64,000 bases of DNA from a virus (IMGVR_UViG_3300025466_000023:1-64000); one strand, 5' to 3'. Positions 23,338-37,508 are shown, counted from the first letter of the stretch. Numbers and translations are program-made. The notes: generated by a model not told the origin, from the letters alone.

Positions 23338-23366
23338 GGAATACCTTTCTAATTGAACATAACAAT

Positions 23367-23629: not shown

Positions 23630-23630
23630 C

Positions 23631-23960
23631 TTACACGGAGAATGAACTACCACATCCACAAGTTGTTTGGGCATTGGGATTTTGGATTACAAACTGACTG
23701 CCGCGAATATCTTCTTTATAGTCTAATGTTGCTCCAACAAGATATTGATGGCTCATAGAATCTATTAGAACAGTAATAGAACCTTTTGTGATTTCAAAAT
23801 CATCTTCGTTTACTTCGCTGTCAAAAGTAAAGCCATATTGAAATCCTGAGCAACCGCCGCCCTGCACAAAACATCGAAGTTTTAAATTAGGATCATTTTC
23901 TTCTGCCAACAGATCGGCTATTTTATCTATACACGATTGAGTTACTGTTATTTGTTCCAT
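23631..23960 (-). CDS. erpA: A-type Fe-S carrier ErpA
   Basis: [17 protein letters not shown]...[16 protein letters not shown]. Confidence 0.92.
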
Positions 23961-24553: not shown

Positions 24554-24930
24554 TTATTTTTGTTTTTATAATCTGCTACTGCGGCTTTGATTGCGTCCTC
24601 TGCGAGGATTGAGCAGTGGATTTTAACAGGTGGAAGAGCCAGCTCTTCGGCGATGTCACTGTTTTTAAGAAGTCCCGCTTGGTCGATGTGCATTCCTTTG
24701 ATCCATTCAGTAACCAATGAGCTGGAGGCAATTGCTGATCCGCATCCATAAGTCTTGAATCGTGCATCTTCTATAATTCCTTCTTTGTTTACTTTGATCT
24801 GTAATTTCATTACATCGCCACAAGCAGGTGCTCCTACCATTCCTGTGCCAACTCCCTCTTCGTCTTTAGGGAATGAACCCACGTTGCGTGGGTTTTCGTA
24901 ATGATCAATTACCTTGTCTGAATAAGCCAT
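24550..24930 (-). CDS. iscU: Fe-S cluster scaffold IscU
   Basis: MAYSDKVIDHYENPRNVG, GAPACGDVM, FKTYGCGSAIAS, LPPVKIHCS. Confidence 0.97.
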   Translation of the reverse strand: MAYSDKVIDHYENPRNVGSFPKDEEGVGTGMVGAPACGDVMKLQIKVNKEGIIEDARFKTYGCGSAIASSSLVTEWIKGMHIDQAGLLKNSDIAEELALPPVKIHCSILAEDAIKAAVADYKNKNN

Positions 24931-24931
24931 A

Positions 24932-25249
24932 TTAGTTTGGTACTAGTACAGTTTTGTAACAATTACAACTAGCATCAAGGATAGCTTCCCAATGATAGCC
25001 CGCAGGCTGTGGCATCACCGGAGCGGCTGGGGGAGGATAAACAGGCTGTGGTTGTACGTAAACAACGTTTGGCTGGACCGGACGAGCTATCTCGTATCCA
25101 ATTACACCTCCGATTACAGTAGGCACTACCCACCCATAATTTGGACGATAAACATAGTGTCCGCCACCGTGGTGCCAACCTTCAGCATATGATGTCATGC
25201 ACATGCTTAACCCTGCAGATAAAATAATTGGTAACAATAGTTTTTTCAT
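24932..25249 (-). CDS. Secreted or membrane proline-rich small protein
   Basis: Signal-peptide-like MKKLLLPIILSAG...SYA; GGVIG segment; VYVQPQPVYPPP; C-terminal CNC. Confidence 0.65.
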   Translation of the reverse strand: MKKLLLPIILSAGLSMCMTSYAEGWHHGGGHYVYRPNYGWVVPTVIGGVIGYEIARPVQPNVVYVQPQPVYPPPAAPVMPQPAGYHWEAILDASCNCYKTVLVPN

Positions 25250-25330
25250 AATAAGTACTCCTTCGTACTAATATAACGTTTGAACAACTCAAATAGTTGA
25301 CTTGCATCAGTATTTATATTAAATAATAGC

Positions 25331-25657
25331 ATGATTACACTAACAGAGCAAGCCCAAAAGAAAGTTTTATCGCTATTATCACAACGTGGTAAGGGGGCAG
25401 GTATCCGTTTAGGAGTTAAAACAACCGGTTGCTCTGGACTAGCTTATGTGTTAGAATATGTAGACGAGTACACTCCGGAAACAGGTGTTACCAACTTTGC
25501 CCATAACGAGTTTTGTGTGTTAGTTGACCACAAGAGCCTAGCTTATATGGACGGAATGGTTGTAGATTGGGTTCGCAACGGACTCAACGAGGGTTTTGAA
25601 TTCCAAAACCCCAATGAACGTGACAAGTGTGGTTGCGGAGAAAGTTTTAGAGTCTAA
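25331..25657 (+). CDS. iscA: A-type Fe-S carrier IscA
   Basis: GIRLGVKTTGCSGLAY...GLNEGFEFQNPNERDKCGCGESF. Confidence 0.93.
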   Translation: MITLTEQAQKKVLSLLSQRGKGAGIRLGVKTTGCSGLAYVLEYVDEYTPETGVTNFAHNEFCVLVDHKSLAYMDGMVVDWVRNGLNEGFEFQNPNERDKCGCGESFRV

Positions 25658-26460
25658 CTATCGAACGTGTACCACTCGTACAAATTCATTTCGTTTTTAC
25701 CAATCTTAGTAAATCTATTTTTGAATCCATCAATTAGCTCTTTATTGATTTTATAGATTTCTTCTTTGGCCTCAGTGTCCGGGATAAAGTTTTCTATAGA
25801 GATTTTAATATTACCATCTAGTGAATGTAATGCTATTGCTACTCTGTGCGTATCGACATCTTGTGTTCGATGTATTATATCGCCCCTGCATAACAATAGA
25901 TCTCCTGCTTTGATTTTAGGAGAGATTTTAATATCTTCAATATTGACATTTAGATACCATTCTTGATTGATATCATCTTCTATTACTTTTGTACGATTTC
26001 CCTCTGGAAAGAAACGTGTAGCTCCTTTACCTTTAAGTCTTTCGGCGCCAGCAGAATCATATTCAGCCAAGGTCTTATAACTTAAAACACTCAGTCCAGA
26101 TTTTTCAACGTCGGGTTTGACAATAGGGATATAAAATTTTAATACACTATTATGATTCTTAAAGAATAGATAAGTTCCGTGATCCTGATGCCAATCTAAG
26201 TTCATCATAGTAGTATCTGAAAACAACCCGCCCGGAACAATCGTATCTGTATAAACAGGAGATTGCTTGATAATATCTCTTAACTTTGGCTCAAGTTGTT
26301 TGACTACAAATTCTGGAACATCGTGAAATACTACCGTATCTGGACTTAAAGTAAGGGTAGACTTGCTTTTCATGTATTCTTTGATCAAAAAGATCAAATC
26401 ATGTGTATTAAAAAAATCTGGGATAACAACAAATCCATGTTCTGTCAGTTCATTATACAT
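25654..26460 (-). CDS. PhyH-like 2OG-Fe(II) dioxygenase
   Basis: HGFVVIPDFF, WHQD, AGDLLL...IIHRT...HRVA. Confidence 0.75.
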   Translation of the reverse strand: MYNELTEHGFVVIPDFFNTHDLIFLIKEYMKSKSTLTLSPDTVVFHDVPEFVVKQLEPKLRDIIKQSPVYTDTIVPGGLFSDTTMMNLDWHQDHGTYLFFKNHNSVLKFYIPIVKPDVEKSGLSVLSYKTLAEYDSAGAERLKGKGATRFFPEGNRTKVIEDDINQEWYLNVNIEDIKISPKIKAGDLLLCRGDIIHRTQDVDTHRVAIALHSLDGNIKISIENFIPDTEAKEEIYKINKELIDGFKNRFTKIGKNEMNLYEWYTFDS

Positions 26461-26461
26461 A

Positions 26462-27229
26462 TCAGTCTCTTGTTAATATTTTTTCTTCAACCTTATCCCA
26501 AAAAGCTATTCTAGATTTTATAGCTGTAATTGCGGTATGTTCTGCTTCAATTATTTTTAAAGGATGATTCTCGCATAGTTCTTCTACTAAGTTGATAGAA
26601 GCTGGCCCGTGACTATCTCCATCTACTTCAATGTGTCTTTCTAGATAAAATGCAAATCGACTAGCTTCTATAGAATTAAGATCTAACTGAGCAATTAATC
26701 TTTGAAACATAGCAGGTATTACTGTTTCTCTACCGTAAGTAAAGGCCGCCGCTATTTCGTGTACCTTTCCTCTTTGTATGATATCAAAAGTAGTCCTCAT
26801 AAATTCTTGACTAGGGTCCGGAATAAAAGAATCTATCAAAGCAAAATCTATTCCTTCTTTTTCAACAGATTCTAAAAATTTCATTATGGGTCTAGTATCA
26901 GCGCCAATTTCTGCCATTGTTTGGCAGTATAGGTCAAAGTGACTAATGTGAGAATTACGAAAAGGATCTATATCGCTTTCTTCTGATAATATTATTTCGT
27001 TAATCAACCTGCCTAGTTTACGTTGTCTTGCTGAAGGTAACCACAGATCTCCGCTAGGACATATACGATGCTGTAGTGCCTTAGCCAAGCTCATAAAATC
27101 CCAAACGGCAAACACATGATGCTCCATAAAGATTTTAAGGTCGTCGATAGACTGTATGGTATTAGTAACCAATAGAGAATGGTTTTCTAATAGGTGTTTA
27201 TGCTGGTTGACTTTGGATATCTTTAGCAT
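26462..27229 (-). CDS. DUF3050 heme-oxygenase-like (dimetal) protein
   Basis: FMEHHVFAVWDFMSL, EIILSEESD, SHFDLY, GRETVIP, YLERHIEVDGDSHGP. Confidence 0.85.
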   Translation of the reverse strand: MLKISKVNQHKHLLENHSLLVTNTIQSIDDLKIFMEHHVFAVWDFMSLAKALQHRICPSGDLWLPSARQRKLGRLINEIILSEESDIDPFRNSHISHFDLYCQTMAEIGADTRPIMKFLESVEKEGIDFALIDSFIPDPSQEFMRTTFDIIQRGKVHEIAAAFTYGRETVIPAMFQRLIAQLDLNSIEASRFAFYLERHIEVDGDSHGPASINLVEELCENHPLKIIEAEHTAITAIKSRIAFWDKVEEKILTRD

Positions 27230-28529
27230 CTTGTATCCCTGTTTCTACTAATTCAACGTCTTCGCCAAACAACAGTTTCAGTGCGGCATTTTGAACAGCA
27301 CCGTAATAGACTTTTTCATTTCTACAGTTTTTTAAAAAAACCTCGTCTGGAAATTCAATAGGACAACTAGATTTGCACAATCTTCTTACGTTACAATCTG
27401 CACAATGAGTTTTTTTTCTATTTAGATCCAACTGTACGATACGTATGCCTTTGAGATTATTAATAGTTCCTGCAATATACTTTTCATTTGTATGAGGACA
27501 AAGTCTCACGTTTCCTTGTACATCTATACTGAGCACGTCGCCCGCATCGGCTCCGCAGTTGGTAGTCATAGTAACCGGTATTTGATTCCTCATACTTAAT
27601 CCGTATTGTACGGCTCCAGTCCTACTATCAAAAAGATTAGACTCCATTAGAGGAAAGTTTTTGCCTTTGCCTAGTTTGTGTAATTGCTCTATGCGAGCAT
27701 CTAAGTATCTATTGATGATCTTCTTAAATTCTAAAGTATCGTCACCGGTCATTACGTGATTGGTGCTGTTTTGACTATCTGTTTCATCATACGTCCGTCC
27801 TAATGTAAAACTTAAACTAGGAAATTTTAATTCTAAGCGATCACTAACAACTTTAAACCAATTGTTTATTGCAAACAGATCATAATTTTGTTTACTGATC
27901 ACACAATTAAAACTATACTGTACTTTAGGATATAGTGCATCGATGGCTTTAATTGCACCAGCAACAGATTCTTTATCAAATATATCATCACCTCGAATAA
28001 ACTGTCCAGGTCCGTCATGACTAATACCTATGTTTACTACAGCAGATAGGCTTTGGAAAAAGTCTACATGTTTTTGTCTTAGTGGGCTTCCATTAGTGCT
28101 GATAAAGAAATGTCTTTTAGGACCATCTAAATGTTTCATTACTGGTTGTATGTCGTTCCAGTACAAAAATGGTTCGCCACCCCATAGTTCTATTCTTTCT
28201 AAGTTTTCTAAATCCAAATATGTATCTATAGACTCTATGAACTTATCTAACGCAGTATTCTTACTGCGTTCGTCGGGGTTTCCAATATCTTTCTGCATGC
28301 AATAATCGCAAGAATAGTTACAGGCATGTCCAAATAAAATACGCAACGCAACAGGTTTATTATGTTTCTTTCTAGTCCCGTGTGTCTTTTTGGCTTCTTC
28401 ATAAAACTCTAACGGTTTTTCGGCAGGAAGGCTTACAGTTTCTCCTGCATCGTTTATGAGAGTGTTATTGTCTACATCATAGTAAACAACTCTGCCGCTT
28501 TGTTTTAGTTTAAATTTGCTTAGACTCAT
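27198..28529 (-). CDS. Radical SAM/SPASM protein (443 aa)
   Basis: CNYSCDYC, LWGGEPF, STNG; SPASM C...DVQGNVRLC...CADCNVRRLCKSSC...C; start moved to ATG at 28529 (ATGA overlap with upstream stop). Confidence 0.92.
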   Translation of the reverse strand: MSLSKFKLKQSGRVVYYDVDNNTLINDAGETVSLPAEKPLEFYEEAKKTHGTRKKHNKPVALRILFGHACNYSCDYCMQKDIGNPDERSKNTALDKFIESIDTYLDLENLERIELWGGEPFLYWNDIQPVMKHLDGPKRHFFISTNGSPLRQKHVDFFQSLSAVVNIGISHDGPGQFIRGDDIFDKESVAGAIKAIDALYPKVQYSFNCVISKQNYDLFAINNWFKVVSDRLELKFPSLSFTLGRTYDETDSQNSTNHVMTGDDTLEFKKIINRYLDARIEQLHKLGKGKNFPLMESNLFDSRTGAVQYGLSMRNQIPVTMTTNCGADAGDVLSIDVQGNVRLCPHTNEKYIAGTINNLKGIRIVQLDLNRKKTHCADCNVRRLCKSSCPIEFPDEVFLKNCRNEKVYYGAVQNAALKLLFGEDVELVETGIQDAKDIQSQPA

Positions 28530-29596
28530 TTTTTCTCTATTATTGGAATTGCGTTGACTTGATCCGGTTTGATCAGACCAAATTTGCATTTAATCCAACC
28601 GCTTTCTATAAGACTGTTACAGTATCTAGTGTATGGTTTTAACATTATTCCCGGAATAAAGTTATAGTCATAGTTTACTTTATATGTATCAGTTAATTTG
28701 AAATATTCTCGAAACTTTGGATTATTTGTTTTTTCAATCCAATTTAAATAACGGCGCTGTTTGCCTTCTATCAACTTTATTAGCAACAGATCTTTATTAA
28801 ATGGCTGTGATAAATCGTCTACGATCCACCAAGGCTCTTCACTTATATCGCTAGCATCATCGCTAGAAAAATAGAATCTATCATAAAACAAATGCGGGGC
28901 TTCCCGCTGTATTTGAATTAATCCGTCATCTGTGCTATCAACCCATGTGTTTTGTTCTTCTGCCCATTGATGTTCTAGTATTCGTCTTTCGGCACTAAAA
29001 TCATGATGTACCATATTGCGCATGCCATTTTTATTAGCATACTCAATAACGGGTTTTAGAGATTCTATATCTCCACAATCAACAAATTTGATTTTTCTAA
29101 TAGGACTTGCATCGTTTAGTTTAGATAGTGCATCAAACAATTTATTTTGATTAACACTTTCTGCAAACTTAGAACTAATACTAATACTGGCTATGTTTTT
29201 AAACTTTATATCTTTAATCATTCTAGCTGATCTAAAGATAGCATTGTCTGTAAAACTATATTCCATATTGTGAGCATGTGCTTGATACCAAGCAAATTGT
29301 TTTGGATAGTTTAGTTTAAGGAACATCATGTCGTCGGCTGTGCTAACAACTAGAAAATTGCTAAAAGCATCTTGCCAAAAATGTTCAGCTTTGCTGGTTA
29401 TTTCTGGAAAATAACTAGGTAGGTTGTTTTTAAGATGTTTAAAATTTTTATCTATGTAACAGATTTTACAACCTGCATCACAATAATATCTAGTTCCCAA
29501 ACTAAAATAGATATCATAATTAATTGAACATAGAGAATCCTGAGATAGCCAATACTCATTGAGATCTATTGCTGTTTCAAAATTCCCATCTATCAT
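28526..29596 (-). CDS. Divergent radical SAM-like protein
   Basis: CDAGCKIC (CxxxCxxC) near the N-terminus, but no GGE motif and no SPASM cysteines. Confidence 0.65.
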   Translation of the reverse strand: MIDGNFETAIDLNEYWLSQDSLCSINYDIYFSLGTRYYCDAGCKICYIDKNFKHLKNNLPSYFPEITSKAEHFWQDAFSNFLVVSTADDMMFLKLNYPKQFAWYQAHAHNMEYSFTDNAIFRSARMIKDIKFKNIASISISSKFAESVNQNKLFDALSKLNDASPIRKIKFVDCGDIESLKPVIEYANKNGMRNMVHHDFSAERRILEHQWAEEQNTWVDSTDDGLIQIQREAPHLFYDRFYFSSDDASDISEEPWWIVDDLSQPFNKDLLLIKLIEGKQRRYLNWIEKTNNPKFREYFKLTDTYKVNYDYNFIPGIMLKPYTRYCNSLIESGWIKCKFGLIKPDQVNAIPIIEKK

Positions 29597-30702
29597 TGTT
29601 TAATTTCAAATCCTTCTGTAATACCTACCCAGTCGACTAAATTCTTTTGTTGTTTAAGTTTATCCGTATGCATGATTGCAAAGTTCATTATCTGATAAAA
29701 ATACTTGCAATTGCCTTTAGGTTCCTCGTTAAACATTTTATACATATACTTCAATCCACAACTAGCACGACTAGGACAAGTTACGCATGAAGGCAATATC
29801 TTATCATCGTCGCCTATGTCTTTCCAAACCACAGGAGTATCTGTGTCCCACTGTCCTGTTCTAGCTTCGTCTCTGCGATATTCTAACCATTCAAATTCTG
29901 GATAGATATAACCGTCTGGCCCTAATATTAATTTACTATGTTCTGCAAAATAGGCCTTGTCTATAAACTGATAATTTCCATCTATGAACACATTAATTTT
30001 TTTAATATAGAGTATTTGTAAGAACTCTAAAAATGCTTCAAAGAACTGTTTTAAATCAATGTTGTCAACTATCACATCGAATTTCTGTTTTCCTCGTTTA
30101 TGTCTTAGCGGAATTATGTTTACACTAGTACATCTAGTAGTATAACAGGTATTGACAAAATTAGCAATATTATTAAAACTAAAACTTCTACGATCATCTA
30201 TTGGTAAAACCCATTGCCATTTCCATTGTTCGCAATTTTCATTTAGCACCTTGGCCATAGCTTCAACATCAAATGATTCTCTGTTTTGCTCTTGGAACAT
30301 GAAATCATAACTAACTGTTGCGGCCAGTATACCTTTATATTTTTCAAAGAACTCTTTGTTTTCCACTACCAAAGATCCATTTGTAGTCATGCTAACTAGC
30401 CAGTTATTCCTACGTGCAATAGGTTCTAGCCATTCCATTATCTCATACATCCGCTTAATAAACAGCAGAGGTTCACCTCCATGAAAGGAGATTCTAGTTA
30501 TACTATTTGTTTGTTTTTCTGCCCAAAGAAAGAAATTCTTTAGTTTGTCAACTTGCCGAGGCCCTACTGATTGTCCACCAAGGTCCTCGATATAATCTCT
30601 ATCGCAATAAACACAATCAAAGTTACATTTATTACCTAGGTATATTGTAACTATGCGTATTTTATCTAAGGGATTAGGATTTACTAGATTTATTCTTGAC
30701 AT
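29593..30702 (-). CDS. Radical SAM protein with partial SPASM domain
   Basis: CNFDCVYC, FHGGEPL, TTNG; GPDGYIYP lacking the usual Cys; CVTCPSRASC...C. Confidence 0.9.
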   Translation of the reverse strand: MSRINLVNPNPLDKIRIVTIYLGNKCNFDCVYCDRDYIEDLGGQSVGPRQVDKLKNFFLWAEKQTNSITRISFHGGEPLLFIKRMYEIMEWLEPIARRNNWLVSMTTNGSLVVENKEFFEKYKGILAATVSYDFMFQEQNRESFDVEAMAKVLNENCEQWKWQWVLPIDDRRSFSFNNIANFVNTCYTTRCTSVNIIPLRHKRGKQKFDVIVDNIDLKQFFEAFLEFLQILYIKKINVFIDGNYQFIDKAYFAEHSKLILGPDGYIYPEFEWLEYRRDEARTGQWDTDTPVVWKDIGDDDKILPSCVTCPSRASCGLKYMYKMFNEEPKGNCKYFYQIMNFAIMHTDKLKQQKNLVDWVGITEGFEIKQ

Positions 30703-32434
30703 TTTTAATCAACCTGTGATTAAATGTTTCTGTAAGAGCTTTAGTTTCAGACTGTAATATTATTAAATGCAACAATCCTAAGAAAAATGCTCGTTGAGCA
30801 GGATCTAGTGTTTGACTATCCATTTTGTTATCTGTTGGTGCTATGCTTCCTTTATCTAAAATAAAGTAATAGAAATCACTAATTTCCATAATACTGTCAT
30901 CAACTAAACTTACAATTTCTTTAACAAAATTATTAGCACCTTGGGTAAGATTTATTTCTAGATTCATTATTTTACGCCACAGTGATAATAGTTTTCTATA
31001 ATCATCAATTTCATCTATTCCGTTATGGACTTTATCTAAAGAAGGATGGTAATTATAAAAATAATAAAATAACAAATAACTTAATCCTCTAACAAATGCA
31101 GGATGTTCGCCCATTGTTTGTTGTGCAGAAACAATCTTTTCAAACTTCAATTTAAACTGTTTTTTAGCAACGTCTTCTTGCAGATCAACAAACAACTTAA
31201 CAATTTTTTGACACATGTCGTCCGGACGAAACATTTTTGTTCCTGTGTCCAAATTGCCAGCAGGACATTGATAGCAGGCATTTTTGTAATCACAAGTTTG
31301 ACATTGTTCTTCTTCCTCAAACATCTTAGCATATTCTTTTTGGAAGTTTCTATATCTATCAATATAGATTTTGTCTTGCCAAAGGTTACCTAATATTGTT
31401 TCGCCTGTAGGGCCTGCCTTTTGATTAGTAAAGAAATAGCATCCGCTAAAGTCACCTGATCCATCAATAGCAATCATGTCTGCACCAATCATGCAGTTTT
31501 CTTCGCCCTTCTGTCCTACCCCTTCTGAAAAGTGTATGGTCATATCTTCGTGTTCTTCTAGTACTGCTACTATATCATCGTGCAGTTTTTGCCATTCTTC
31601 TTCTCGCCATTGAACGAATCCTCTAGCACTATCTAATACTAATGGATGAACGACTATTCTGCGTATACCTCTAGAATATAAATTGTCAACAAAGTCTCTA
31701 AAATAAGGAGCATTTTCTCTAGCAAGAGTAATCCTCATTGTAACACGTTTTGCGGCTTTAACATCTGCGGGCATACGACTTATGCAGTCCATTACTTTAT
31801 CGATATCCTTCTGCCCGATTTCTCTATGGTCAACTTCAGAGCGATTTGTATCAAGACTGATTAATACTCCTGTAAAGTCGTATGAAAAATATTCATTTAT
31901 AAATTCATCTGTTAACAAAATACCGTTTGTTACCAGACCAATTACTGTATTTGTTTCTCCTGTACAGGTTAGAGATATTTCTTGTTCATTGGTCTTTAAG
32001 AATTGAAGTATTAGCTCTTTGTGTATCAAAGGCTCACCGCCAAAGAACTGAAACACTTTACGTTGTCTTTGGTTGCTGTCTCTAAGGAATCTAAATGCCG
32101 TTAGTAGACTTTCATTTGTAAATCTACCAAAGTCTTTGTTATGCTGTTCGTAACAGTACGTACAACTTAGATTACAAGCATTGGTTAATATTAAATTCAT
32201 CTGCTTCAAATCTTGAAACAAAAATTTACTATCTTTAAAACTTAATATTTGTTCAGTCGGCTTAGGTAGTACGCTTACAAGTCTGTTGGTTTTTTCTAAC
32301 CCTTTAGGGGTTATAATATTTGAGCTATGATATGCAAAGGATCCGTCTTCTGAAACACTAACACTAGATTTATGATCTAGGAATCTTTTCTTTTGTGCTT
32401 CAGTTTTGATCCAGGCAATTGGATGTTCTGCCAT
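30674..32434 (-). CDS. Radical SAM/SPASM protein with C-terminal extension (586 aa)
   Basis: CNLSCTYC, FFGGEPL, VTNG; CMIG...DGSGDFSGC...CQTCDYKNACYQC...MC; start at ATG 32434 overlaps the upstream stop (TAATG). Confidence 0.93.
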   Translation of the reverse strand: MAEHPIAWIKTEAQKKRFLDHKSSVSVSEDGSFAYHSSNIITPKGLEKTNRLVSVLPKPTEQILSFKDSKFLFQDLKQMNLILTNACNLSCTYCYEQHNKDFGRFTNESLLTAFRFLRDSNQRQRKVFQFFGGEPLIHKELILQFLKTNEQEISLTCTGETNTVIGLVTNGILLTDEFINEYFSYDFTGVLISLDTNRSEVDHREIGQKDIDKVMDCISRMPADVKAAKRVTMRITLARENAPYFRDFVDNLYSRGIRRIVVHPLVLDSARGFVQWREEEWQKLHDDIVAVLEEHEDMTIHFSEGVGQKGEENCMIGADMIAIDGSGDFSGCYFFTNQKAGPTGETILGNLWQDKIYIDRYRNFQKEYAKMFEEEEQCQTCDYKNACYQCPAGNLDTGTKMFRPDDMCQKIVKLFVDLQEDVAKKQFKLKFEKIVSAQQTMGEHPAFVRGLSYLLFYYFYNYHPSLDKVHNGIDEIDDYRKLLSLWRKIMNLEINLTQGANNFVKEIVSLVDDSIMEISDFYYFILDKGSIAPTDNKMDSQTLDPAQRAFFLGLLHLIILQSETKALTETFNHRLIKNVKNKSSKS

Positions 32435-32703
32435 TACAATGTACCACGAGTGCAATCACATTGACATTGACAATCGCAAACAGTAGTAAAATCATCATAA
32501 TAAGTGTGAGTATGATTTACAAGATTATTAAGAACGTTTGCCATTGCGGCAAATGTTGAAGCCGAAATACGTTGTCCAGACCCCACAGTTCCAGGTACGC
32601 TTACGCCTTGATTAGGTGCGGAAGTATAGTTAGCGTCCACGTTTCCGTCGGTTACGATCTGTGCATCTACTGTTGCGGTATTTGTTGAAGTTGTATCAGC
32701 CAT
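32434..32703 (-). CDS. Small protein with helix-HxH repeat and Cys-rich C-terminus (candidate radical SAM substrate)
   Basis: 89 aa ending HTHTYYDDFTTVCDCQCQCDCTRGTL; stop overlaps the start of the first radical SAM gene. Confidence 0.8.
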   Translation of the reverse strand: MADTTSTNTATVDAQIVTDGNVDANYTSAPNQGVSVPGTVGSGQRISASTFAAMANVLNNLVNHTHTYYDDFTTVCDCQCQCDCTRGTL

Positions 32704-32705
32704 AA

Positions 32706-33743
32706 TTAATCTCCAGTGTATTTATAACTGCTATTTCGATAAACATCTAAAGTGACTACGCATTTGTTTTCTAGTCCACCTAGACTTCTAGCTGTCTGTG
32801 AAAGACCCATAACAGTATTTTCATTCCATCTAATGTGTATATACCCTTGTTCTTGTCCATCTTTAAACTCAAAATATACCTTATTACTGTCCGGATCTCT
32901 AGTCCAATTTAGGTTAGATATTACTTTAATGTTTACTTTTGGAACTTCTTCTTGATAGCGCCACTGAAAAATGCTGTTTCCGAATGGTTTTAACCAAAAC
33001 TTATCACCCGCAACAATTTTAGAATTACCTAAATAGGCAATATTCTTGCTCATTGAGGGTCTAAAGATTATGTCTCCTATAGACCCAAAATGTGCCTCCG
33101 TAGTCCAAAACCTAACTTCTTCATCTTCCTCTGTATCAAAATACGGAGAAATAGCTGTTAAGTCTGGATTAGGCACTAGATAATAGATAGGCAGTTCTCC
33201 TGTTCTATATAAGAAAAACCATACAATACTTAAAACTTTGCTAGAGCCCGATTTGACCAAAGAACGATCGGGTAAGTAGACAAATTCTGATTTCAAATGA
33301 CCTTCTATTGTCTCTTCATTTTGTGCTAACCTATTTTCACTATCGAGCAATCGAGTAATCCATCTACTGTTGTTAGTAATATATTGATTATCAACATTAG
33401 TATTTTCATCAAATACTGTAGCAAAGGCAACACTTCTGCTAGCAGGATCTTCATCTAAGTAATCAAATGCAGTCTGCATATCTATGTCAATCGAAAGTCT
33501 TTCTCTATTAGGCAGATGTTGTTTAAAGAAGTGATACAACGTTAGCGTAGATTCTTTAGTTTTATTTCTACCTATAGTGATATTAAAATTATTCTTTGAA
33601 AAACAAGATAATCTTTGATAATAATCCCTTGCTTCCCATATACCTAATCCCTTGTAAAATCCCCCTACATTCCACGCATTTTGTATATCTCCCCAAGGAG
33701 TTGGATAATGAGGCAACTGTTGCACTATTACTGTTTTTTTCAT
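32706..33743 (-). CDS. Hypothetical protein in the radical SAM cluster
   Basis: 345-aa ORF coupled to neighbours (ATGA overlap upstream, 2-nt gap downstream); no motif recognised. Confidence 0.75.
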   Translation of the reverse strand: MKKTVIVQQLPHYPTPWGDIQNAWNVGGFYKGLGIWEARDYYQRLSCFSKNNFNITIGRNKTKESTLTLYHFFKQHLPNRERLSIDIDMQTAFDYLDEDPASRSVAFATVFDENTNVDNQYITNNSRWITRLLDSENRLAQNEETIEGHLKSEFVYLPDRSLVKSGSSKVLSIVWFFLYRTGELPIYYLVPNPDLTAISPYFDTEEDEEVRFWTTEAHFGSIGDIIFRPSMSKNIAYLGNSKIVAGDKFWLKPFGNSIFQWRYQEEVPKVNIKVISNLNWTRDPDSNKVYFEFKDGQEQGYIHIRWNENTVMGLSQTARSLGGLENKCVVTLDVYRNSSYKYTGD

Positions 33744-34108
33744 TTTATTGATACCTTTAATATCTTCATACTACCTGTAAATCTAATATCTTCATGTACT
33801 TTAACATCGATATTAATATATTGTATTATACCTTTGTTGGTATTACGTTCTTTCATTAATGTATGCCTTACTGTTATTGGTTCGTCTAAGTATATAGATT
33901 TTTTAAAACGAAACTGTTGTTCAATTAACCAAACAGTAAAATAATTAATATCTGTTTCACCCAATGCCTTGGCCGCGGTTAATAAACCAGGCACTACTAC
34001 TCTATCAGAATCTGCTCGATGCTGTGGGTTTCTATCGTTTCCCATCGCACAAAATGCAGTTATTTCTTCTTGAGTTACTTTAATAGGAAATTCAACATAG
34101 CCTATCAA
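33740..34108 (-). CDS. MaoC-like hotdog-fold dehydratase
   Basis: VTQEEITAFCAMGNDRNPQH...VVPGLLTA...RFKKSIYLDE. Confidence 0.82.
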   Translation of the reverse strand: MIGYVEFPIKVTQEEITAFCAMGNDRNPQHRADSDRVVVPGLLTAAKALGETDINYFTVWLIEQQFRFKKSIYLDEPITVRHTLMKERNTNKGIIQYINIDVKVHEDIRFTGSMKILKVSIK

Positions 34109-34919
34109 TTACATCTCCATAGGTCATTGTTATTCCTAATGCAGACAAAGATAATTTGATCATATCAAGTTCTCCATCTGTTACTTGATTACAATAATCC
34201 GCATCGATAAATTCTAAAGTGTATGTTCTAGTAGTTGACTCTTCTGTGTCAACATCAGATGCTGAGCCGCTGAACATGAAACCGCTGTGTTCTACTTTAG
34301 AAACCCACTTGACCATAAATGCTTGTTCGATGCTATCACCTGGACTAATCTTGGGCGGATACTTAATTGTTTTTGGAATCTCAATACTAATATCTCGACT
34401 CCACAATTTGTTTGGATTGCTGTCTATACAATGATATTCAGCGATAGCCAAGTGCGTTCTATCAAAACAACTAGAATTAAAAGCAGAATGAAAACGACCC
34501 GCTGTGTTATATCTATAACCATACCCGTCAGCCCGTGTTGGAAAAACTTCTGTTTCTTCAAAATCAAAAAAGAAACAACCGGGATTATCATTAATGTGTA
34601 AATGATATTTGTTATCAGGATCCCTATGCCAACGAAGGCACTGATTAGGAATTAGATTTAGAAATGTTCCTCGACTGACTTTAATTGGTAAAGACCTAAT
34701 AAACTTTTCAAATACAGTTCCTTGTATCTCAGGCACAACATTTGGGTTTTCGATATAAAAATACTTAAGGCGATCGACTCCCTCTTTTGGTAAACAAGCA
34801 TTCAGCATGCCCATTCTACTCATGTTATGTTTGATAGCGTTCCATTCTTCTAACACCTGCTGGGGATCGACACGTACGGCAGTACGTTCGATAATATTAC
34901 GCATAAACTGTCTACTCAT
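34092..34919 (-). CDS. Cupin/2OG-Fe(II) hydroxylase (Asp/Asn beta-hydroxylase-like) with C-terminal extension
   Basis: LRWHRD...KYHLHI...FHSAFN...DRTHL. Confidence 0.7.
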   Translation of the reverse strand: MSRQFMRNIIERTAVRVDPQQVLEEWNAIKHNMSRMGMLNACLPKEGVDRLKYFYIENPNVVPEIQGTVFEKFIRSLPIKVSRGTFLNLIPNQCLRWHRDPDNKYHLHINDNPGCFFFDFEETEVFPTRADGYGYRYNTAGRFHSAFNSSCFDRTHLAIAEYHCIDSNPNKLWSRDISIEIPKTIKYPPKISPGDSIEQAFMVKWVSKVEHSGFMFSGSASDVDTEESTTRTYTLEFIDADYCNQVTDGELDMIKLSLSALGITMTYGDVIDRLC

Positions 34920-35245
34920 TATGCTCGTGTCCTAATGCTAGTGTTGTGTATTGAAATGTAGGTTTCTAAATCAAAGTGTCCAAATGGATTATTATCAATT
35001 TGTTCAGCTATTTCGTATTCTAAATCACCGTACCAATTATTTTCCTTGGCAAACTGTTCCGGGTCACAATGCAGTTTTTCAGCTTGTTTATAGGCACTAT
35101 AAGTTCCTACAACATGTTGATGTTCATCATATTTTAAACATACAGCAACTAACACGGCTAGATCACGTGAAGATTTTGTCCATGTATATTCTATTTTTTC
35201 TAAGTTGCCCGTTCTATGTCTAGAAGGTCTTTCACGTGAAAACAT
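34919..35245 (-). CDS. Hypothetical protein
   Basis: 108 aa; upstream TATAAATA and AAGGGG SD; TAATG coupling to the next gene. Confidence 0.7.
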   Translation of the reverse strand: MFSRERPSRHRTGNLEKIEYTWTKSSRDLAVLVAVCLKYDEHQHVVGTYSAYKQAEKLHCDPEQFAKENNWYGDLEYEIAEQIDNNPFGHFDLETYISIHNTSIRTRA

Positions 35246-35295
35246 TGTTTAACCCCTTATTATTAGCGGTATTTATAAGTGCTACTTTAATGATT

Positions 35296-36522
35296 TTAAA
35301 ATGCTGGTATACCGACAACAACAGACGAACATTTACCACCAAAACCGTAGGAGTTTTTAACAAAATGAGATTTAGTTATTGTTTTAGTAGACTTTACGAT
35401 TGTAATGTCTTTTTCGAATTCACAACTGGTAAAATTAGCCACGGGTGGCACTTGTTTAGTTTCTAAACTTTTAATTCCATATATAAGTTCTATAAGACCA
35501 CTAGCACTCATTGTATGACCTATATGGCCTTTATTGCTAGTAATATATGCATTGGGAAATAATTTGTTCATAGCATCGTATTCTATTACATCTCCGGCAG
35601 GTGTAGATGTTGCATGAGCCGACACAAATGCAATGTCATCTTCAATAACTCCACTTCTAGTTAATGCCTGAACTGTGGCACTGGTTGCTCCCATACCATC
35701 TTCAGTTGGACTTGTAGGATGTGCGGTTTCTGTATAAAATCCTATGCCACATATTTCAGCAAGAATAGTAGCACCTCTAGCCTGTGCATGTTCTAAAGTT
35801 TCTACCACAACAACTCCTGCACCTTCTCCTAAAATAAATCCATCACGTGTATCGCTAAAGGGTTGGCTAATATAATCTTCATCGCGCTTGCTCAATGCAC
35901 GTAAAACTTGGAAGAAGTACATATCGTATTTTTCAACCATAGCATCAGTACCACCAACAACTGCTATGTCACAATCCCCTGCGGCTAAGCATTTAATGCC
36001 ATAATCTAAAGTGTAGATTCCCGTAGCACATGCACTAACCATTACTGTGCTAGGACCATGCCACCCGTATTTGGCCGCAACTGCACCCGTAGTAAAGTCA
36101 TAGCTAATGCCTAATGTTTGAAATGGGTTGGCTTTAGTTTTGCCAGAATTGTAAGCTATTTCGACTATGTTTCTAGCATCGTTGCCGCCACTGATACTAG
36201 ATATTAATGTAGCTACATTGGTAGTAGTAAATCCACTTTGTCTAACTGCTTCGTCTACGGCCAACATTGCGGCCTTGGTCAATAAGGGCCAATTGCGTGA
36301 CTCGTGTTCTGTATAAACTGTTTGTTCTAATTGGTCTAGATCGGGAAGCTCAAAGGCTCTATGGACTAGCATGGCGGGATCTGTACGAGTATCCCAACTA
36401 TCGACCTTAGGGGTGGGCTGTTTACTGTTGAACAATTTGGTAAAGGTATTATCAACACCAGAACCTAGTGAATTTACTAGGCCCATGCCTGTGATAACAA
36501 ATCGTGTGCTGGGAAGTTTCAT
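35296..36522 (-). CDS. fabF: Beta-ketoacyl-ACP synthase (FabF/FabB family)
   Basis: VITGMG, SACATG (catalytic Cys), GFILGEGAG, AHATSTPAGD, KGHIGHT, NSYGFGG. Confidence 0.92.
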   Translation of the reverse strand: MKLPSTRFVITGMGLVNSLGSGVDNTFTKLFNSKQPTPKVDSWDTRTDPAMLVHRAFELPDLDQLEQTVYTEHESRNWPLLTKAAMLAVDEAVRQSGFTTTNVATLISSISGGNDARNIVEIAYNSGKTKANPFQTLGISYDFTTGAVAAKYGWHGPSTVMVSACATGIYTLDYGIKCLAAGDCDIAVVGGTDAMVEKYDMYFFQVLRALSKRDEDYISQPFSDTRDGFILGEGAGVVVVETLEHAQARGATILAEICGIGFYTETAHPTSPTEDGMGATSATVQALTRSGVIEDDIAFVSAHATSTPAGDVIEYDAMNKLFPNAYITSNKGHIGHTMSASGLIELIYGIKSLETKQVPPVANFTSCEFEKDITIVKSTKTITKSHFVKNSYGFGGKCSSVVVGIPAF

Positions 36523-36568
36523 ATCAGCTGTATTTAAAGCTGATATTTTTTTAAATCACTAATAGTGA

Positions 36569-36946
36569 TTATCTAGTTGTATTATCGTTTTCGTAGTGTG
36601 TATGACCAGCAATAGTGTTTAATACACTGATTGCGGCATTTACTCCGGCCGCAGAAATTTGTTGCCCTGAGCTAGCAGTTCCTATACTTATTGACTGTGC
36701 GGGGCCATTAGTGTTGTTTGCAACACTATAAGTGTTCCTATCACCATTACTACCAAATGTAGCTTCTTGCTCGATATCAGTCCAGCTATGATAATGGCTC
36801 GCAAACTGATTAATAGCATTGCAAATACTGTTAATGTCCGAGGCATTAATTCTGTTTCCCGAATAAAAAGCGCCTGTGTTAGGGCTCGGAGTACCTGCTT
36901 GCCAATTTGGACCGCCTGTAGTTCCCGTTCCTGAACCTGTTCCCAT
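36569..36946 (-). CDS. Small protein with two helix-HxH repeats
   Basis: 125 aa; SGNRINAS...ASHYHSWTD and SGQQISAA...AGHTHYEND. Confidence 0.8.
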   Translation of the reverse strand: MGTGSGTGTTGGPNWQAGTPSPNTGAFYSGNRINASDINSICNAINQFASHYHSWTDIEQEATFGSNGDRNTYSVANNTNGPAQSISIGTASSGQQISAAGVNAAISVLNTIAGHTHYENDNTTR

Positions 36947-36947
36947 A

Positions 36948-37508
36948 TTATGCTCCTAGTGTGATTACCTTAGTATATATCGTTTGATCTCCGCCTTGTG
37001 GAACTAGATAATATATGTTCCTTGCTTGAATATTATATTCTGTTAATAGCGGTCGAATAAAGATATTTTCAAATAGTGTAGTTAATTGCGCAGTATTACT
37101 GTTACAACTGTTTACTTGGTTCTCTAACCATTCTACAGATTTGGCACTATTGTTAATCCAATCTTGTGCAACAAAGTCACTATAGATATTTTCGTACCCT
37201 GGATCTAGAAAAATATCTTGGCTAGCATCGTACCCTTGGGCAACAAGGCTAGTAGTTAACCAATCAGCTAATTTCATTTGTCTAGTAGAGCCCATTTTCA
37301 GCACATCAAAAAAGTCTTGATTAGATGTGTTATTAATTACTCCAATAATCTGTTGTCCTGAAACGGGAGATCCGTTTAGTGTCAATGCTTGCATGCAGGG
37401 ATGACTTAATGCAAATTGAATAAAGATGCTAGAAGTGGAATAAGTGTTAGTAGCTGTATTGATTGCTACGGCAGTCCATGAAAACGTAGATGAAGTTGTG
37501 TCTGACAT
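36948..37508 (-). CDS. Hypothetical protein
   Basis: 186 aa; coupled to neighbours; S/T-rich N-terminus MSDTTSST. Confidence 0.7.
   Translation of the reverse strand: MSDTTSSTFSWTAVAINTATNTYSTSSIFIQFALSHPCMQALTLNGSPVSGQQIIGVINNTSNQDFFDVLKMGSTRQMKLADWLTTSLVAQGYDASQDIFLDPGYENIYSDFVAQDWINNSAKSVEWLENQVNSCNSNTAQLTTLFENIFIRPLLTEYNIQARNIYYLVPQGGDQTIYTKVITLGA

What the first reader, a model, noticed from the sequence alone, without database searches (positions are those of the whole stretch)
25654..37508. Phage-encoded RiPP-like cluster: four tandem radical SAM proteins coupled to a CDCQCQCDC-tailed small protein, with oxidases and fatty-acid enzymes
Seen: an 89-aa gene ending VCDCQCQCDCTRGTL overlaps (TAATG) the first of four consecutive, overlapping CxxxCxxC genes. 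These are followed by a DUF3050 heme-oxygenase-like gene and a PhyH-like gene, and preceded by MaoC, a cupin hydroxylase and FabF, all on one strand. Established: radical SAM/SPASM enzymes install thioether crosslinks on Cys-rich peptides (sactipeptides, ranthipeptides), and heme-oxygenase-like dimetal oxidases and 2OG oxygenases tailor peptides and amino acids. Inference: the phage encodes a multi-enzyme maturation pathway whose substrate is the alternating-Cys tail. No transporter lies in the cluster, so the product may be a modified virion component rather than a secreted peptide. I know of no characterised system with this architecture.
Basis: partly seen in the sequence, partly recalled or inferred. 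Interest (0 to 1): 0.93.

Follow-up and report, generated by a model that had tools for sequence, protein, structure and literature searches.

The report
Phage radical-SAM cassette, cysteine-ladder protein
A large freshwater phage carries a widely conserved, undescribed gene set in which four radical-SAM-type enzymes sit next to a tiny protein ending in alternating cysteines, most likely to modify chemically a small fibre-like part of the phage tail.

Summary
The core observation is real. An 89-aa gene ends in CDCQCQCDCTRGTL, and its stop overlaps (TAATG) the first of four consecutive CxxxCxxC genes. A DUF3050 gene and a FabF-like gene lie on the same strand. The MaoC and PhyH labels are weak, and the cupin label has no support.

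The cassette is conserved. The order is 2-repeat HxH protein, a ~300-aa beta-rich protein, the Cys-ladder protein, rSAM1, rSAM2, a degenerate rSAM, rSAM4, and usually DUF3050. It recurs in Ralstonia phage RP12 and in more than 100 uncultured phage contigs.

The ladder gene is present in 32 of 33 and 71 of 80 rSAM-anchored loci. All ten exceptions are cut contigs.

Three findings are new here:
- 94 of 108 loci carry exactly three HxH repeats, split 2+1, 1+2, or fused as three in one protein. This argues for a pseudo-trimeric unit.
- rSAM4 is the specific counterpart of the single SPASM enzyme that sits beside a true tail fibre in Achromobacter phage JWF. That fibre has a Cys ladder directly before a Hint domain.
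- The KAS set and the PhyH-like gene are accessory (12 of 117 and 0 of 117 loci).

The most likely function is radical-SAM modification, probably thioether cross-linking, of a tail-associated module. Nothing has been tested biochemically. This scan has already noted the same cassette on other DNA. I found no paper describing it.

The parts
36948..37508 (-). p186, a conserved upstream small protein of unknown function
   Evidence: No Pfam or PHROG hit. BLASTP finds relatives directly upstream of the 2-repeat HxH gene in many related loci, at 21-27% identity.
36569..36946 (-). hxh125, a protein with two helix-HxH...D repeats and no Cys tail; paralogue of the ladder protein
   Evidence: The 89-aa protein matches both repeats (E 1e-7 and 1e-3). 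It hits phrog_31780, unknown function. Invariant residues are H51 H53 D57 G65 G68 H115 H117 D121 in 18 of 18 sequences. The AF2 model has pLDDT 78, with the order helix, strand, strand, helix. No PDB match was found.
35296..36522 (-). FabF-like beta-ketoacyl synthase (accessory)
   Evidence: Pfam ketoacyl-synt 112 bits and Ketoacyl-synt_C 87 bits. TIGR03150 296 bits, below the 494 cut-off. Found in 12 of 117 related loci.
34919..35245 (-). p108, unknown function; travels with the KAS set (accessory)
   Evidence: No family hit. Co-occurs with the KAS, p275 and p122 in 9 of 117 loci.
   Evidence: No Pfam or PHROG support for a cupin. Travels with the KAS set.
33740..34108 (-). p122, weakly MaoC-like (accessory)
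   Evidence: MaoC_dehydratas 13 bits, E 0.066, cut-off 27. Travels with the KAS set.
32706..33743 (-). p345, a core beta-rich protein that is always next to the ladder gene
   Evidence: AF2 model pLDDT 82, pTM 0.82, mostly strands. The best BFVD match is a 295-aa uncharacterised RP12 protein, E 8.8e-16, TM 0.69/0.80, which has the length and position of RP12 ORF075. The C-terminal part (220-340) is Ig-like only at Z up to 6.4, which is not decisive. A gene of this size is adjacent to the ladder gene in the inspected loci.
32434..32703 (-). cys89, with one helix-HxH...D repeat, a 3-residue spacer and the alternating-Cys ladder C76 C78 C80 C82 C84 followed by T-R-G-T-L; the presumed substrate
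   Evidence: Sequence. Invariant residues are M54 L61 H64 H66 D70 C76 C78 C80 R86 G87 in 22 of 22 sequences. Among 127 unique ladder proteins, D70 is present in 127, the 3-residue spacer in 126, and the [RK]G ending in 123.
30674..32435 (-). rSAM1, a radical SAM enzyme with a full 7-Cys SPASM domain and a C-terminal extension
   Evidence: Radical_SAM 63 bits. CxxxCxxC plus seven further Cys are invariant in 31 of 31 sequences. The best NCBIfam hit is PapB at 118 bits, cut-off 340. The best PDB sequence match is 5wgg/5why, E 2.5e-14. The TAATG start is shown.
29593..30702 (-). rSAM2, a radical SAM enzyme with four conserved C-terminal Cys (one auxiliary cluster likely)
   Evidence: Radical_SAM 39 bits. 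CxxxCxxC plus C306 C309 C315 C332 are invariant in 28 of 28 sequences.
28526..29596 (-). p356, a degenerate radical-SAM-like protein that keeps CxxxCxxC but has no auxiliary Cys
   Evidence: No Pfam or NCBIfam hit. It hits phrog_36229. The motif is kept in 27 of 28 sequences. Its nearest ESM-Atlas clusters by features are viral radical SAM clusters, score 0.96. hhalign against the rSAM2 family gives only 2% probability.
27198..28589 (-). rSAM4, a radical SAM enzyme with a full SPASM domain; counterpart of the lone enzyme beside ladder-bearing tail fibres
   Evidence: Radical_SAM 45 bits. SPASM domain TIGR04085 28.4 bits, cut-off 27. CxxxCxxC plus six Cys are in 26 of 26 sequences and a seventh in 23 of 26. 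JWF gp030 and RSP15 ORF045 match it at 133 and 124 bits, against 48 bits or less for rSAM1 and rSAM2.
26462..27229 (-). DUF3050, a heme-oxygenase-like protein (frequent partner)
   Evidence: PF11251 272 bits. Present in 56 of 78 loci that extend at least 1 kb past rSAM4. Modelled as a di-iron, CADD-like protein in PMC4520260 (passages read).
25654..26460 (-). Weakly PhyH-like ORF (not part of the conserved cassette)
   Evidence: PhyH 17 bits, below the cut-off of 22. No relative in 117 related loci.
23631..25657 (.). Fe-S assembly genes beside the cassette: IscA-like 25331-25657 (+), IscU 24550-24930 (-), IscA-like 23631-23960 (-)
   Evidence: Fe-S_biosyn 67 and 66 bits, NifU_N 178 bits. IscA relatives lie near the cassette in 5 of 117 loci.

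Best explanation
This is a conserved phage cassette that matures a small fibre-like protein module.

The module has three helix-HxH...D repeats. Here two lie in the 125-aa protein and one in the 89-aa protein. I infer that the repeats pack as a pseudo-trimer whose six histidines could hold a metal, as HxH motifs do in trimeric phage fibres. That comparison is recalled, not tested.

Only one repeat continues, after an invariant 3-residue spacer, into an alternating-Cys ladder that ends x-R-G-x-x. I infer that this ladder folds back as a beta-hairpin onto the H.H.F.D.Y strand.

The SPASM radical SAM enzymes most probably install thioether-type cross-links from the ladder cysteines. rSAM4 is the first candidate, helped or followed by rSAM1, rSAM2 and the degenerate p356. 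Likely acceptors are the neighbouring Asn/Gln/Asp/Glu residues or the facing strand, with invariant D70 opposite C78. DUF3050 may add an oxidation.

The matured module, probably together with the beta-rich p345, would then become part of the tail or fibre apparatus.

What is shown: gene content, conservation, co-occurrence, repeat arithmetic and enzyme family placement.
What is inferred: the substrate-enzyme link, the chemistry, the metal site, the hairpin and the location in the virion.
For: Co-occurrence:
- The ladder gene is present in 32 of 33 IMG/VR loci found with rSAM1.
- It is present in 71 of 80 metagenome loci found with rSAM2. In the other 9, less than 1.7 kb of contig lies upstream.
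- All 4 genome-collection loci found with the ladder protein carry the enzymes.
- RP12 has an unannotated 65-aa ladder ORF.
- The collections share some contigs, so these counts are not independent.

Coupling and conservation:
- The ladder gene's stop overlaps the rSAM1 start as TAATG.
- Conservation of the ladder protein is shown.
- 62 of the 85 relatives found among 1.84 billion representative proteins carry a ladder.

Three repeats per locus:
- 94 of 108 loci have exactly three HxH repeats: 2+1T in 59, 1T+2 in 34, and 1+2T in Ewingella.
- There is a single-chain form with three repeats plus the tail, P0030.

Enzyme placement:
- Full SPASM Cys sets are conserved.
- The nearest families are thioether formers: PapB 118 bits, QhpD 83, CXXX-repeat 81, SCIFF 80, and CteB in the PDB.

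Tail context:
- Tail-fibre and baseplate genes flank the cassette.
- In JWF a tail-fibre protein carries NCNCDCNCNCSC directly before a Hint domain. An rSAM4-like SPASM enzyme lies two genes downstream.

Precedent and structure:
- A SPASM enzyme has been shown to cross-link a protein rather than a peptide: CrpC acting on CrpA, PMC13692751 (abstract and sections 8 and 14 read).
- The AF2 model of the paralogue puts the HxH strand (52-60) next to a second strand (73-78).
Against: - There is no biochemical evidence of any kind.
- All family scores are far below the curated cut-offs.
- C-x-C spacing matches no characterised thioether motif. No RRE, protease or exporter was found.
- The RP12 record labels ORF072 and ORF073 as virion structural proteins, but it labels the HxH protein (ORF074) and the p345 counterpart (ORF075) as hypothetical. 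The RP31 virion protein list is in a supplement that I could not open.
- Translational coupling to an enzyme gene is unusual for an abundant structural protein.
- In JWF the fibre has no HxH repeat, so the link rests on the ladder and on rSAM4 only.
- Only two cultured phage groups other than RP12/RP31 matched rSAM4, and the RSP15 fibre ends in only N-C-Q-C-G-N.
- No fold match supports a fibre-like structure for the HxH protein.
- A search for longer proteins carrying the HxH-ladder module found none (the tool calls this weak evidence).
- Ligand-rich His, Asp and Cys could simply bind metal without any modification.
Confidence: 0.55

Rival explanations
1. The small HxH and ladder proteins are unmodified metal-binding proteins, holding Fe, Zn, Cu or an Fe-S cluster on the His/Asp/Cys face. 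The radical SAM array acts on some other substrate, such as a lipid, a cofactor, a nucleotide or another protein.
For: - The invariant residues are all classical metal ligands: H, H, D and the Cys run.
- Fe-S assembly genes lie next to the cassette here and in some relatives.
- Lipid-type genes (KAS, desaturase-like) recur nearby.
- p356 has lost features of an active radical SAM enzyme.
Against: - The pairing of the ladder gene with the enzymes is strict and adjacent, and often translationally coupled, across distant lineages.
- The ladder plus a single rSAM4-like enzyme recurs in JWF without the other genes.
- The nearest enzyme families all act on Cys-rich peptides or proteins.
- The lipid genes are present in only 12 of 117 loci.
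Confidence: 0.15
2. It is a true RiPP. The N-terminal part of the 89-aa protein is a leader. The ladder is cut off and released at lysis as a free bioactive peptide, for example a metal chelator, a toxin or a signal.
For: - The layout resembles a RiPP cluster: a small gene directly before SPASM maturases, with Cys confined to the C-terminus.
- The first ~25 residues are variable and the following helix is conserved.
Against: - No protease, exporter or recognisable RRE was found.
- The conserved part is a repeat shared with a non-ladder paralogue and always sums to three repeats.
- Forms with two or three repeats in one chain exist, and one form has the ladder internal, before a Pro-rich linker and a 180-aa domain.
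- The cassette lies in a tail-gene neighbourhood.
Confidence: 0.12
3. It is a protein-derived cofactor system, like the QhpC gamma subunit or PQQ. The radical SAM enzymes and DUF3050 would build a cross-linked, redox-active (quinone-type) centre from the conserved F/Y-x-D-D-Y and Cys residues, for a catalytic role during infection.
For: - rSAM1 scores 83 bits against the QhpD family.
- Aromatic and acidic residues are invariant next to the Cys run.
- A heme-oxygenase-like oxidase is a frequent partner.
- Extra oxygenase-like genes vary around the cassette.
Against: - No dehydrogenase or other catalytic partner subunit is conserved.
- DUF3050 is missing from 22 of 78 eligible loci.
- The score is far below the QhpD cut-off of 453.
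- The tail-gene context and the JWF fibre ladder point to a structural role.
Confidence: 0.08

Closest known systems
Ranthipeptide and sactipeptide maturation by SPASM radical SAM enzymes (PapB/freyrasin, NCBIfam NF047865; SCIFF maturase CteB, TIGR03974, PDB 5WGG/5WHY)
   Same: - CxxxCxxC plus a 7-Cys SPASM domain.
- These are the best family and structure matches for rSAM1.
- A Cys-rich C-terminal target is encoded directly upstream.
   Different: - Scores are 118 and 80 bits, against cut-offs of 340 and 425.
- The target has C-x-C spacing rather than C-x3-D-type motifs (motifs recalled).
- The target is a folded repeat protein with a paralogous partner.
- There are four enzymes instead of one.
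- It is phage-borne, among tail genes, with no protease or exporter.
CrpC/CrpA/CrpB of Methanococcus voltae (PMC13692751; CrpC belongs to TIGR04463)
   Same: - A SPASM enzyme installs ranthionine cross-links on a protein, not a short peptide.
- The substrate CrpA has a paralogue CrpB that shares its N-terminal part but lacks most of the Cys. This parallels cys89 and hxh125 (sections 8 and 14 read).
   Different: - rSAM1 scores 60 bits against TIGR04463, cut-off 525.
- CrpA is about 29 kDa, with ten 17-residue repeats and C-x-x-Q/D motifs.
- It is archaeal and cellular, with one enzyme.
QhpD/QhpC (quinohemoprotein amine dehydrogenase gamma-subunit maturation, TIGR03906)
   Same: - A small Cys-containing subunit is cross-linked by a SPASM radical SAM enzyme and stays part of a protein complex (recalled, and mentioned in PMC13692751 section 14).
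- It is the second-best family hit of rSAM1.
   Different: - 83 bits against a cut-off of 453, covering only the radical SAM core.
- No dehydrogenase subunits, protease or flavoprotein partner are present.
Achromobacter phage JWF gp028/gp030 (and Ralstonia phage RSP15 ORF048/ORF045), uncharacterised
   Same: - An alternating-Cys ladder lies in a tail-fibre gene cluster beside an rSAM4-like SPASM enzyme: 28% identity, 133 and 124 bits, same Cys pattern.
   Different: - In JWF the ladder lies inside a 483-aa fibre protein, directly before a Hint domain. There are no HxH repeats and only one enzyme.
- RSP15 has only C-Q-C at the fibre end.
- Neither has been studied experimentally, as far as my searches show.
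HxH metal sites of trimeric phage fibres and spikes (T4 gp37 and gp12, P2 gpV), recalled and not tested
   Same: - HxH motifs follow a helical or coiled segment.
- Three copies per unit would give six His for one octahedral metal site.
   Different: - Here the three copies are spread over two different chains, or fused into one.
- No sequence or fold match to any solved fibre was found.

Membership tests
Radical SAM superfamily (PF04055) | CxxxCxxC cluster motif and a Pfam score above the gathering cut-off | tested here: met
   rSAM1 scores 63, rSAM2 39 and rSAM4 45 bits, cut-off 29.5. The motif is invariant in 31 of 31, 28 of 28 and 26 of 26 relatives. p356 has the motif (27 of 28) but no Pfam hit, so p356 on its own does not meet this feature.
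SPASM-domain radical SAM enzymes (PF13186 / TIGR04085) | Seven-Cys C-terminal motif for two auxiliary 4Fe-4S clusters | tested here: met
   rSAM1 has seven further Cys invariant in 31 of 31 sequences. rSAM4 has six in 26 of 26 and a seventh in 23 of 26. TIGR04085 scores 28.4 bits for rSAM4, cut-off 27. Pfam SPASM scores 18.7 bits for rSAM1, below 21.5. rSAM2 has only four conserved Cys and p356 has none.
PapB-family ranthipeptide maturase (NF047865) | Whole-protein score at or above the curated cut-off (340 bits) | tested here: not met
   rSAM1 scores 118, rSAM4 51 and rSAM2 45 bits.
SCIFF maturase (TIGR03974) with a SCIFF peptide | Score at or above 425 bits and a six-Cys-in-45 precursor | tested here: not met
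   rSAM1 scores 80 bits. The precursor here has an HxH repeat plus a C-x-C ladder. True SCIFF peptides were seen only in unrelated fecal phage records.
QhpD (TIGR03906) | Score at or above 453 bits and qhp partner genes | tested here: not met
   83 bits over the radical SAM core only. No qhp-like partners appear in any locus.
TIGR04463 (CrpC family) | Score at or above 525 bits | tested here: not met
   rSAM1 scores 60 bits.
RiPP biosynthetic cluster (general) | Leader/core precursor with a recognition element (RRE) on the maturase or a partner | tested here: inconclusive
   Pfam found nothing RRE-like in the N-terminal 85 and 80 residues of rSAM1 and rSAM4.
RiPP biosynthetic cluster (general) | Leader peptidase and/or exporter in the cluster | tested here: not met
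   No family hit in the window's cluster is to a peptidase or transporter, and none is among the conserved core genes of related loci.
Thioether (sactionine or ranthionine) cross-linked product | Loss of 2 Da per link, with Cys no longer alkylatable | not testable with these tools
   Requires co-expression and mass spectrometry.
DUF3050 (PF11251), heme-oxygenase-like | Pfam score above the cut-off | tested here: met
   272 bits, cut-off 22.2.
Beta-ketoacyl-ACP synthase II (FabF, TIGR03150) | Equivalog score at or above 494 bits | tested here: not met
   296 bits. Both Pfam KAS domains are present. It is therefore a KAS-fold enzyme, but not shown to be FabF.
Virion (tail-fibre) structural protein | Detected in purified particles, or homologous to a known fibre | tested here: inconclusive
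   The context is tail genes. The RP12 record does not label ORF074 or ORF075 as virion proteins. The RP31 proteome table is in a closed supplement. No fold match to fibres was found.

The most novel reading that the evidence does not exclude
Large phages use a team of radical SAM enzymes to build a covalently stapled, metal-holding hairpin at the end of a three-repeat pseudo-trimeric mini-fibre. Each ladder cysteine would be linked to the residue facing it (for example C78 to the invariant D70), next to a six-histidine metal site. This would be a radical-SAM-made post-translational modification of a virus particle component, and a new C-x-C substrate class for SPASM enzymes.
Probability: 0.35. 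Interest if true: 0.88.

Novelty: new variant of a known kind. Interest (0 to 1): 0.77.

Why it matters
Radical SAM/SPASM cross-linking is known for small secreted peptides and, so far, for only a few proteins. If this reading holds, a widespread group of large freshwater, marine and soil phages spends about 5 kb on such chemistry, and sometimes adds its own Fe-S assembly genes, to mature a tail-associated protein.

That would add enzymatic radical chemistry to the ways viruses build their host-attachment apparatus. It would define a new substrate motif: a C-x-C ladder after an HxH repeat. It would also give a function to four phage protein families now listed as unknown: phrog_31780, phrog_36229, phrog_34539 and the p345/ORF075 family.

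Three cultured systems make this directly testable: RP12/RP31 on Ralstonia, JWF on Achromobacter, and a phage-like locus in Ewingella americana E4.

Tried and rejected
- Near-identical DNA in the phage collection: none.
- tblastn of the 89-aa protein against phages: none, although RP12 has a relative. This is probably due to the low-complexity filter.
- Word-indexed protein search with the 89-aa protein: it found only itself.
- The same tool with alignment A1 and 'longer' lengths: no hit among 8000 candidates, which the tool itself calls weak evidence.
- Complex prediction for hxh125 plus cys89: not available, so the pseudo-trimer was not modelled.
For P0044 it found only the N-terminal small-protein part. 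The genomic context of the fused forms is therefore unknown, and P0044 could be a gene-calling artefact.
- Fold searches of the hxh125 model: no Foldseek hit at E <= 0.001 and a best Z of 4.1.
- PDB sequence searches with A1, A2 and A3: nothing meaningful.
- hhalign of p356 against rSAM2: 2% probability. The radical SAM origin of p356 therefore rests on the motif, its position in the array and ESM-Atlas features.
- ESM Atlas for p345: no usable hit.
By my reading of the script output, 8 are small HxH-ladder ORFs of this family, one more is a ladder fragment at a contig end, and the rest are out-of-frame or low-complexity chance matches. No long fibre was seen. The script also mis-placed some matches.
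- The weak rSAM1 hits in fecal 'Bacteriophage sp.' records are ordinary SCIFF systems. 3 of 3 inspected were of this kind.
- Promoter and terminator scans: 56 found against 50.4 +/- 7.7 expected, and 11 against 7.8 +/- 2.7. These are uninformative.
- Sequencing runs: no RNA holder listed.
They may bear directly on the virion claim.
- Literature searches that found no description of the system.

Full report
WHAT IS THERE

The window is part of an 81.5-kb IMG/VR virus record that CheckV estimates as 23% complete. It is therefore a fragment of a very large phage. It contains giant structural ORFs and tail-type proteins.

On the minus strand, from 37508 down to 25654, lie these genes in order:
- p186
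- a 125-aa protein (hxh125)
- a KAS
- p108
- p275
- p122
- p345
- the 89-aa protein (cys89)
- four CxxxCxxC genes
- DUF3050
- a 268-aa ORF

The 89-aa protein ends VCDCQCQCDCTRGTL. Its TAA overlaps the ATG of the first radical SAM gene.

Pfam confirms three radical SAM enzymes, DUF3050 and the KAS. The third CxxxCxxC gene (p356) hits no curated family.

The PhyH label rests on 17 bits and the MaoC label on 13 bits, both below their cut-offs. Nothing supports a cupin.

Next to the cluster lie IscU, two IscA-type genes and two 2OG oxygenases.

THE CASSETTE IS CONSERVED

tblastn found the same array in the Ralstonia jumbo phages RP12 and RP31. RP12 ORF074-080 are collinear with the window's genes. 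An unannotated 65-aa ORF ending NCNCNCACTRGSL lies between ORF074 and ORF075. The RP12/RP31 paper only lists these genes among 'other genes' (passages read).

Co-occurrence was tested from three anchors:
- Anchored on rSAM1, IMG/VR gave 33 loci, and 32 encode a ladder protein. The exception, L032, ends inside rSAM1.
- Anchored on rSAM2, the metagenome collection gave 119 relatives, of which the tool kept 80. Of these, 71 encode a ladder protein. In the other nine, rSAM2 lies less than 1.7 kb from the contig end.
- Anchored on the ladder protein, the genome collection gave four loci: three MAG contigs and an Ewingella americana scaffold. All carry the enzymes.

Some contigs occur in two collections, so these sets overlap.

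The conserved order is: (p186), the two-repeat HxH protein, a ~300-aa protein, the ladder protein, rSAM1, rSAM2, p356, rSAM4 and (DUF3050). In some lineages the small genes move, either to between p356 and rSAM4 or to downstream on the other strand.

The accessory genes are much less conserved:
- DUF3050 is present in 56 of 78 loci that reach far enough.
- The KAS is in 12 of 117 loci. The full KAS/p108/p275/p122 set is in 9 of 117, in two distant lineages and two different orientations.
- The PhyH-like ORF is in none of 117.

THE SUBSTRATE CANDIDATE

In 22 aligned ladder proteins, M54, L61, H64, H66, D70, C76, C78, C80, R86 and G87 are invariant.

A profile search of 1.84 billion representative proteins found 85 relatives. 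Of these, 62 carry at least three alternating Cys.

Across 127 unique ladder proteins from all sources:
- D70 is present in all 127.
- The spacer between position 72 and the first Cys is three residues in 126.
- The chain ends [RK]-G-x-x in 123.
- Ladders have 3, 4, 5 or 6 Cys (32, 27, 58 and 10 proteins).
- The residues between the Cys are Q 164, N 136, A 46, E 45, D 28, and 8 others.

The conserved residues before the spacer alternate as H.H.F/Y.D.Y, and so do the Cys after it. If the chain turns at the three-residue spacer, one face of a beta-hairpin would carry all of them, with D70 opposite C78. This is my geometric inference. Its only support is that the AF2 model of the paralogue places its HxH strand (52-60) beside a following strand (73-78).

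THREE REPEATS PER UNIT

The 89-aa protein matches both halves of the 125-aa protein. In that protein, HxH...D is invariant in both repeats.

I counted HxH...D/N motifs in all small proteins hit by the family profiles. Of 108 loci, 94 have exactly three:
- 59 as 2+1(tail)
- 34 as 1(tail)+2
- 1 as 1+2(tail), in Ewingella

The other 14 loci break down as follows:
- Nine have a single repeat. For most of them I checked that the contig is cut before the place where the two-repeat gene lies in related loci.
- Three have two repeats. One of these has a cut ORF. For the other two my regular expression may have missed a repeat.
- Two have a duplicated two-repeat gene.

Among the representatives, one chain (P0030, 230 aa) has three repeats plus the tail. 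Several have two repeats plus the tail, and three have three repeats without a tail.

A constant total of three, whatever the partition, is what a pseudo-threefold assembly predicts. The counts are my test of that idea. I could not model the complex.

THE ENZYMES

Conserved cysteines:
- rSAM1 and rSAM4 keep CxxxCxxC plus seven further Cys, which is a full SPASM set.
- rSAM2 keeps four further Cys.
- p356 keeps only CxxxCxxC.

From the alignment consensus, and by my own reading of the register rather than a tool result, p356 has a conserved acidic stretch where rSAM2 has GGEP.

The best curated families for rSAM1 are all makers of Cys thioethers, and all score far below their cut-offs:

| Family | Score (bits) | Cut-off (bits) |
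|---|---|---|
| PapB | 118 | 340 |
| QhpD | 83 | 453 |
| CXXX-repeat | 81 | 350 |
| SCIFF | 80 | 425 |

The best solved relative of rSAM1 is 5wgg/5why, which PMC13692751 names as CteB.

That paper shows that the SPASM enzyme CrpC installs ranthionine links on a 29-kDa protein, CrpA. Its paralogue CrpB shares the N-terminal part (abstract and sections 8 and 14 read). This is the nearest characterised analogue in logic.

LINK TO TAILS

The neighbourhood is tail and structural genes in several places:
- In RP12 the cassette follows two proteins annotated as virion structural.
- In locus L011 it lies between a tail-fibre-like protein and a protein like an L-shaped-tail-fibre assembly factor, followed by virion structural proteins.
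- In the Ewingella scaffold a baseplate wedge gene and tail-like proteins lie upstream.
- In the window, tail-type proteins lie about 6 kb away.

p345 gives a confident, mostly beta model. Its best match in BFVD is a 295-aa RP12 protein, the length and position of ORF075. Its C-terminal domain is Ig-like only at undecisive Z values.

Earlier notes of this scan claimed that Cys ladders also end true tail fibres next to one such enzyme. I tested this in cultured phages:
- rSAM4, but not rSAM1 or rSAM2, has relatives in Achromobacter phages JWF and 2-1 and in Ralstonia phage RSP15.
- In JWF the enzyme (gp030) lies two genes after gp028. The record's note likens gp028 to the T4 gp36 tail-fibre family. 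It contains NCNCDCNCNCSC directly before a Hom_end Hint domain that starts at residue 308 (47.5 bits, cut-off 32).
- In RSP15 the enzyme follows a 'putative side tail fiber protein' that ends N-C-Q-C-G-N.

This amounts to one clear example and one weak one. My other attempts to find fibre-fused forms failed.

WHAT IT MOST LIKELY IS

On this evidence I read the cassette as a maturation system for a small three-repeat, probably metal-binding, tail-associated module, whose single Cys ladder is modified by SPASM enzymes. Thioether cross-linking is the most probable chemistry because of the enzyme relatives and the Asn/Gln/Asp/Glu-rich ladder.

rSAM4 is the prime candidate for the ladder step because it is the enzyme retained in the minimal fibre systems. 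rSAM1 is translationally coupled to the substrate gene.

The roles of rSAM2, p356, DUF3050, p345 and p186 are open. The KAS set and the PhyH-like gene are accessory or unrelated.

Rival readings remain possible: unmodified metal-binding proteins, a free RiPP, or a protein-derived cofactor. They are weighed in their own sections.

NOVELTY

Six full-text searches found no description of the system. Pfam and NCBIfam have no model for the small proteins or for p345, and PHROGs lists the relevant families as unknown.

This scan has noted the same cassette several times on other DNA.

The DNA of this window recurs almost unchanged in freshwater and lake metagenomes filed in 2017, 2018 and 2022. Seven of these runs are not flagged as its possible source. 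It therefore belongs to a persistent natural phage population.

Noticed in passing
window 21245-25657: An Fe-S assembly kit lies directly beside the cassette: IscU 24550-24930, and IscA-type genes at 23631-23960 and 25331-25657. Two PF13759 2OG-Fe(II) oxygenases (21245-21802, 23960-24553) are there as well. IscA relatives lie near the cassette in 5 of 117 related loci.
   Followed up: partly
L001 (RP12, NC_041911) 10793-10990: An unannotated 65-aa ORF between ORF074 and ORF075 encodes the ladder protein, ending NCNCNCACTRGSL. The public record misses the presumed substrate gene.
   Followed up: yes
L250 (Achromobacter phage JWF) 3685-5136: In tail-fibre protein gp028 the Cys ladder is directly followed by a Hint domain (PF05203, from residue 308). 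If the Hint domain cleaves itself off, the mature fibre would end at the ladder. The cleavage has not been tested.
   Followed up: partly
L041 (Ewingella americana E4 scaffold, 253 kb) 9482-17666: An isolate genome holds a variant cassette with the repeats split 1 + 2(tail). It sits next to a baseplate-wedge gene, tail-like proteins and a transposase. Whether it is a prophage, a tailocin-like element or a co-assembled phage was not resolved.
   Followed up: partly
L006 6491-7279; L007 17970-19555; L089 1617-2399: By my reading of the sequences, genes that look like membrane fatty-acid desaturases (histidine boxes) lie near the cassette in several lineages, sometimes with the KAS set. I ran no family search on them. 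Together with the KAS set this hints at a recurrent lipid-type accessory module.
   Followed up: no
ladder proteins, position 69 of the window protein: The residue between F68 and D70 covaries with ladder length. It is mostly T or S with 3 Cys and mostly Y or F with 4-5 Cys. This may only reflect lineage.
   Followed up: partly
hxh125 and cys89 C-termini (window 36569-36946, 32434-32703): Both small proteins end with an Arg-containing tail straight after their last conserved motif: ...D-D-R-T-G in most two-repeat proteins and C-x-R-G-T-L in ladder proteins. This could be a shared docking or recognition element.
   Followed up: no
L241-L243 (MT835472, MT835702, MT836452): Unannotated 'Bacteriophage sp.' records from human fecal samples carry classical SCIFF-type peptides (GGCGECQTSCQSACKTSC...) beside a radical SAM maturase. 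These are unrelated to the cassette studied here.
   Followed up: partly
window 20500-21015 (+): An HNH endonuclease gene lies on the opposite strand, between the minus-strand tail genes and the DNA ligase. It is probably a homing-endonuclease insertion.
   Followed up: no
L011 7588-8862 (-); L003 6448-7236 and 11176-11664: Other loci insert different extra genes inside the cassette. L011 has a PHROG-supported aminotransferase-like gene. L003 has an ORF with two E-x-x-H motifs and a 162-aa ORF between rSAM2 and p356. The L003 labels are my reading of the sequences only and were not tested. The slots between core genes seem to accept variable tailoring-type genes.
   Followed up: no
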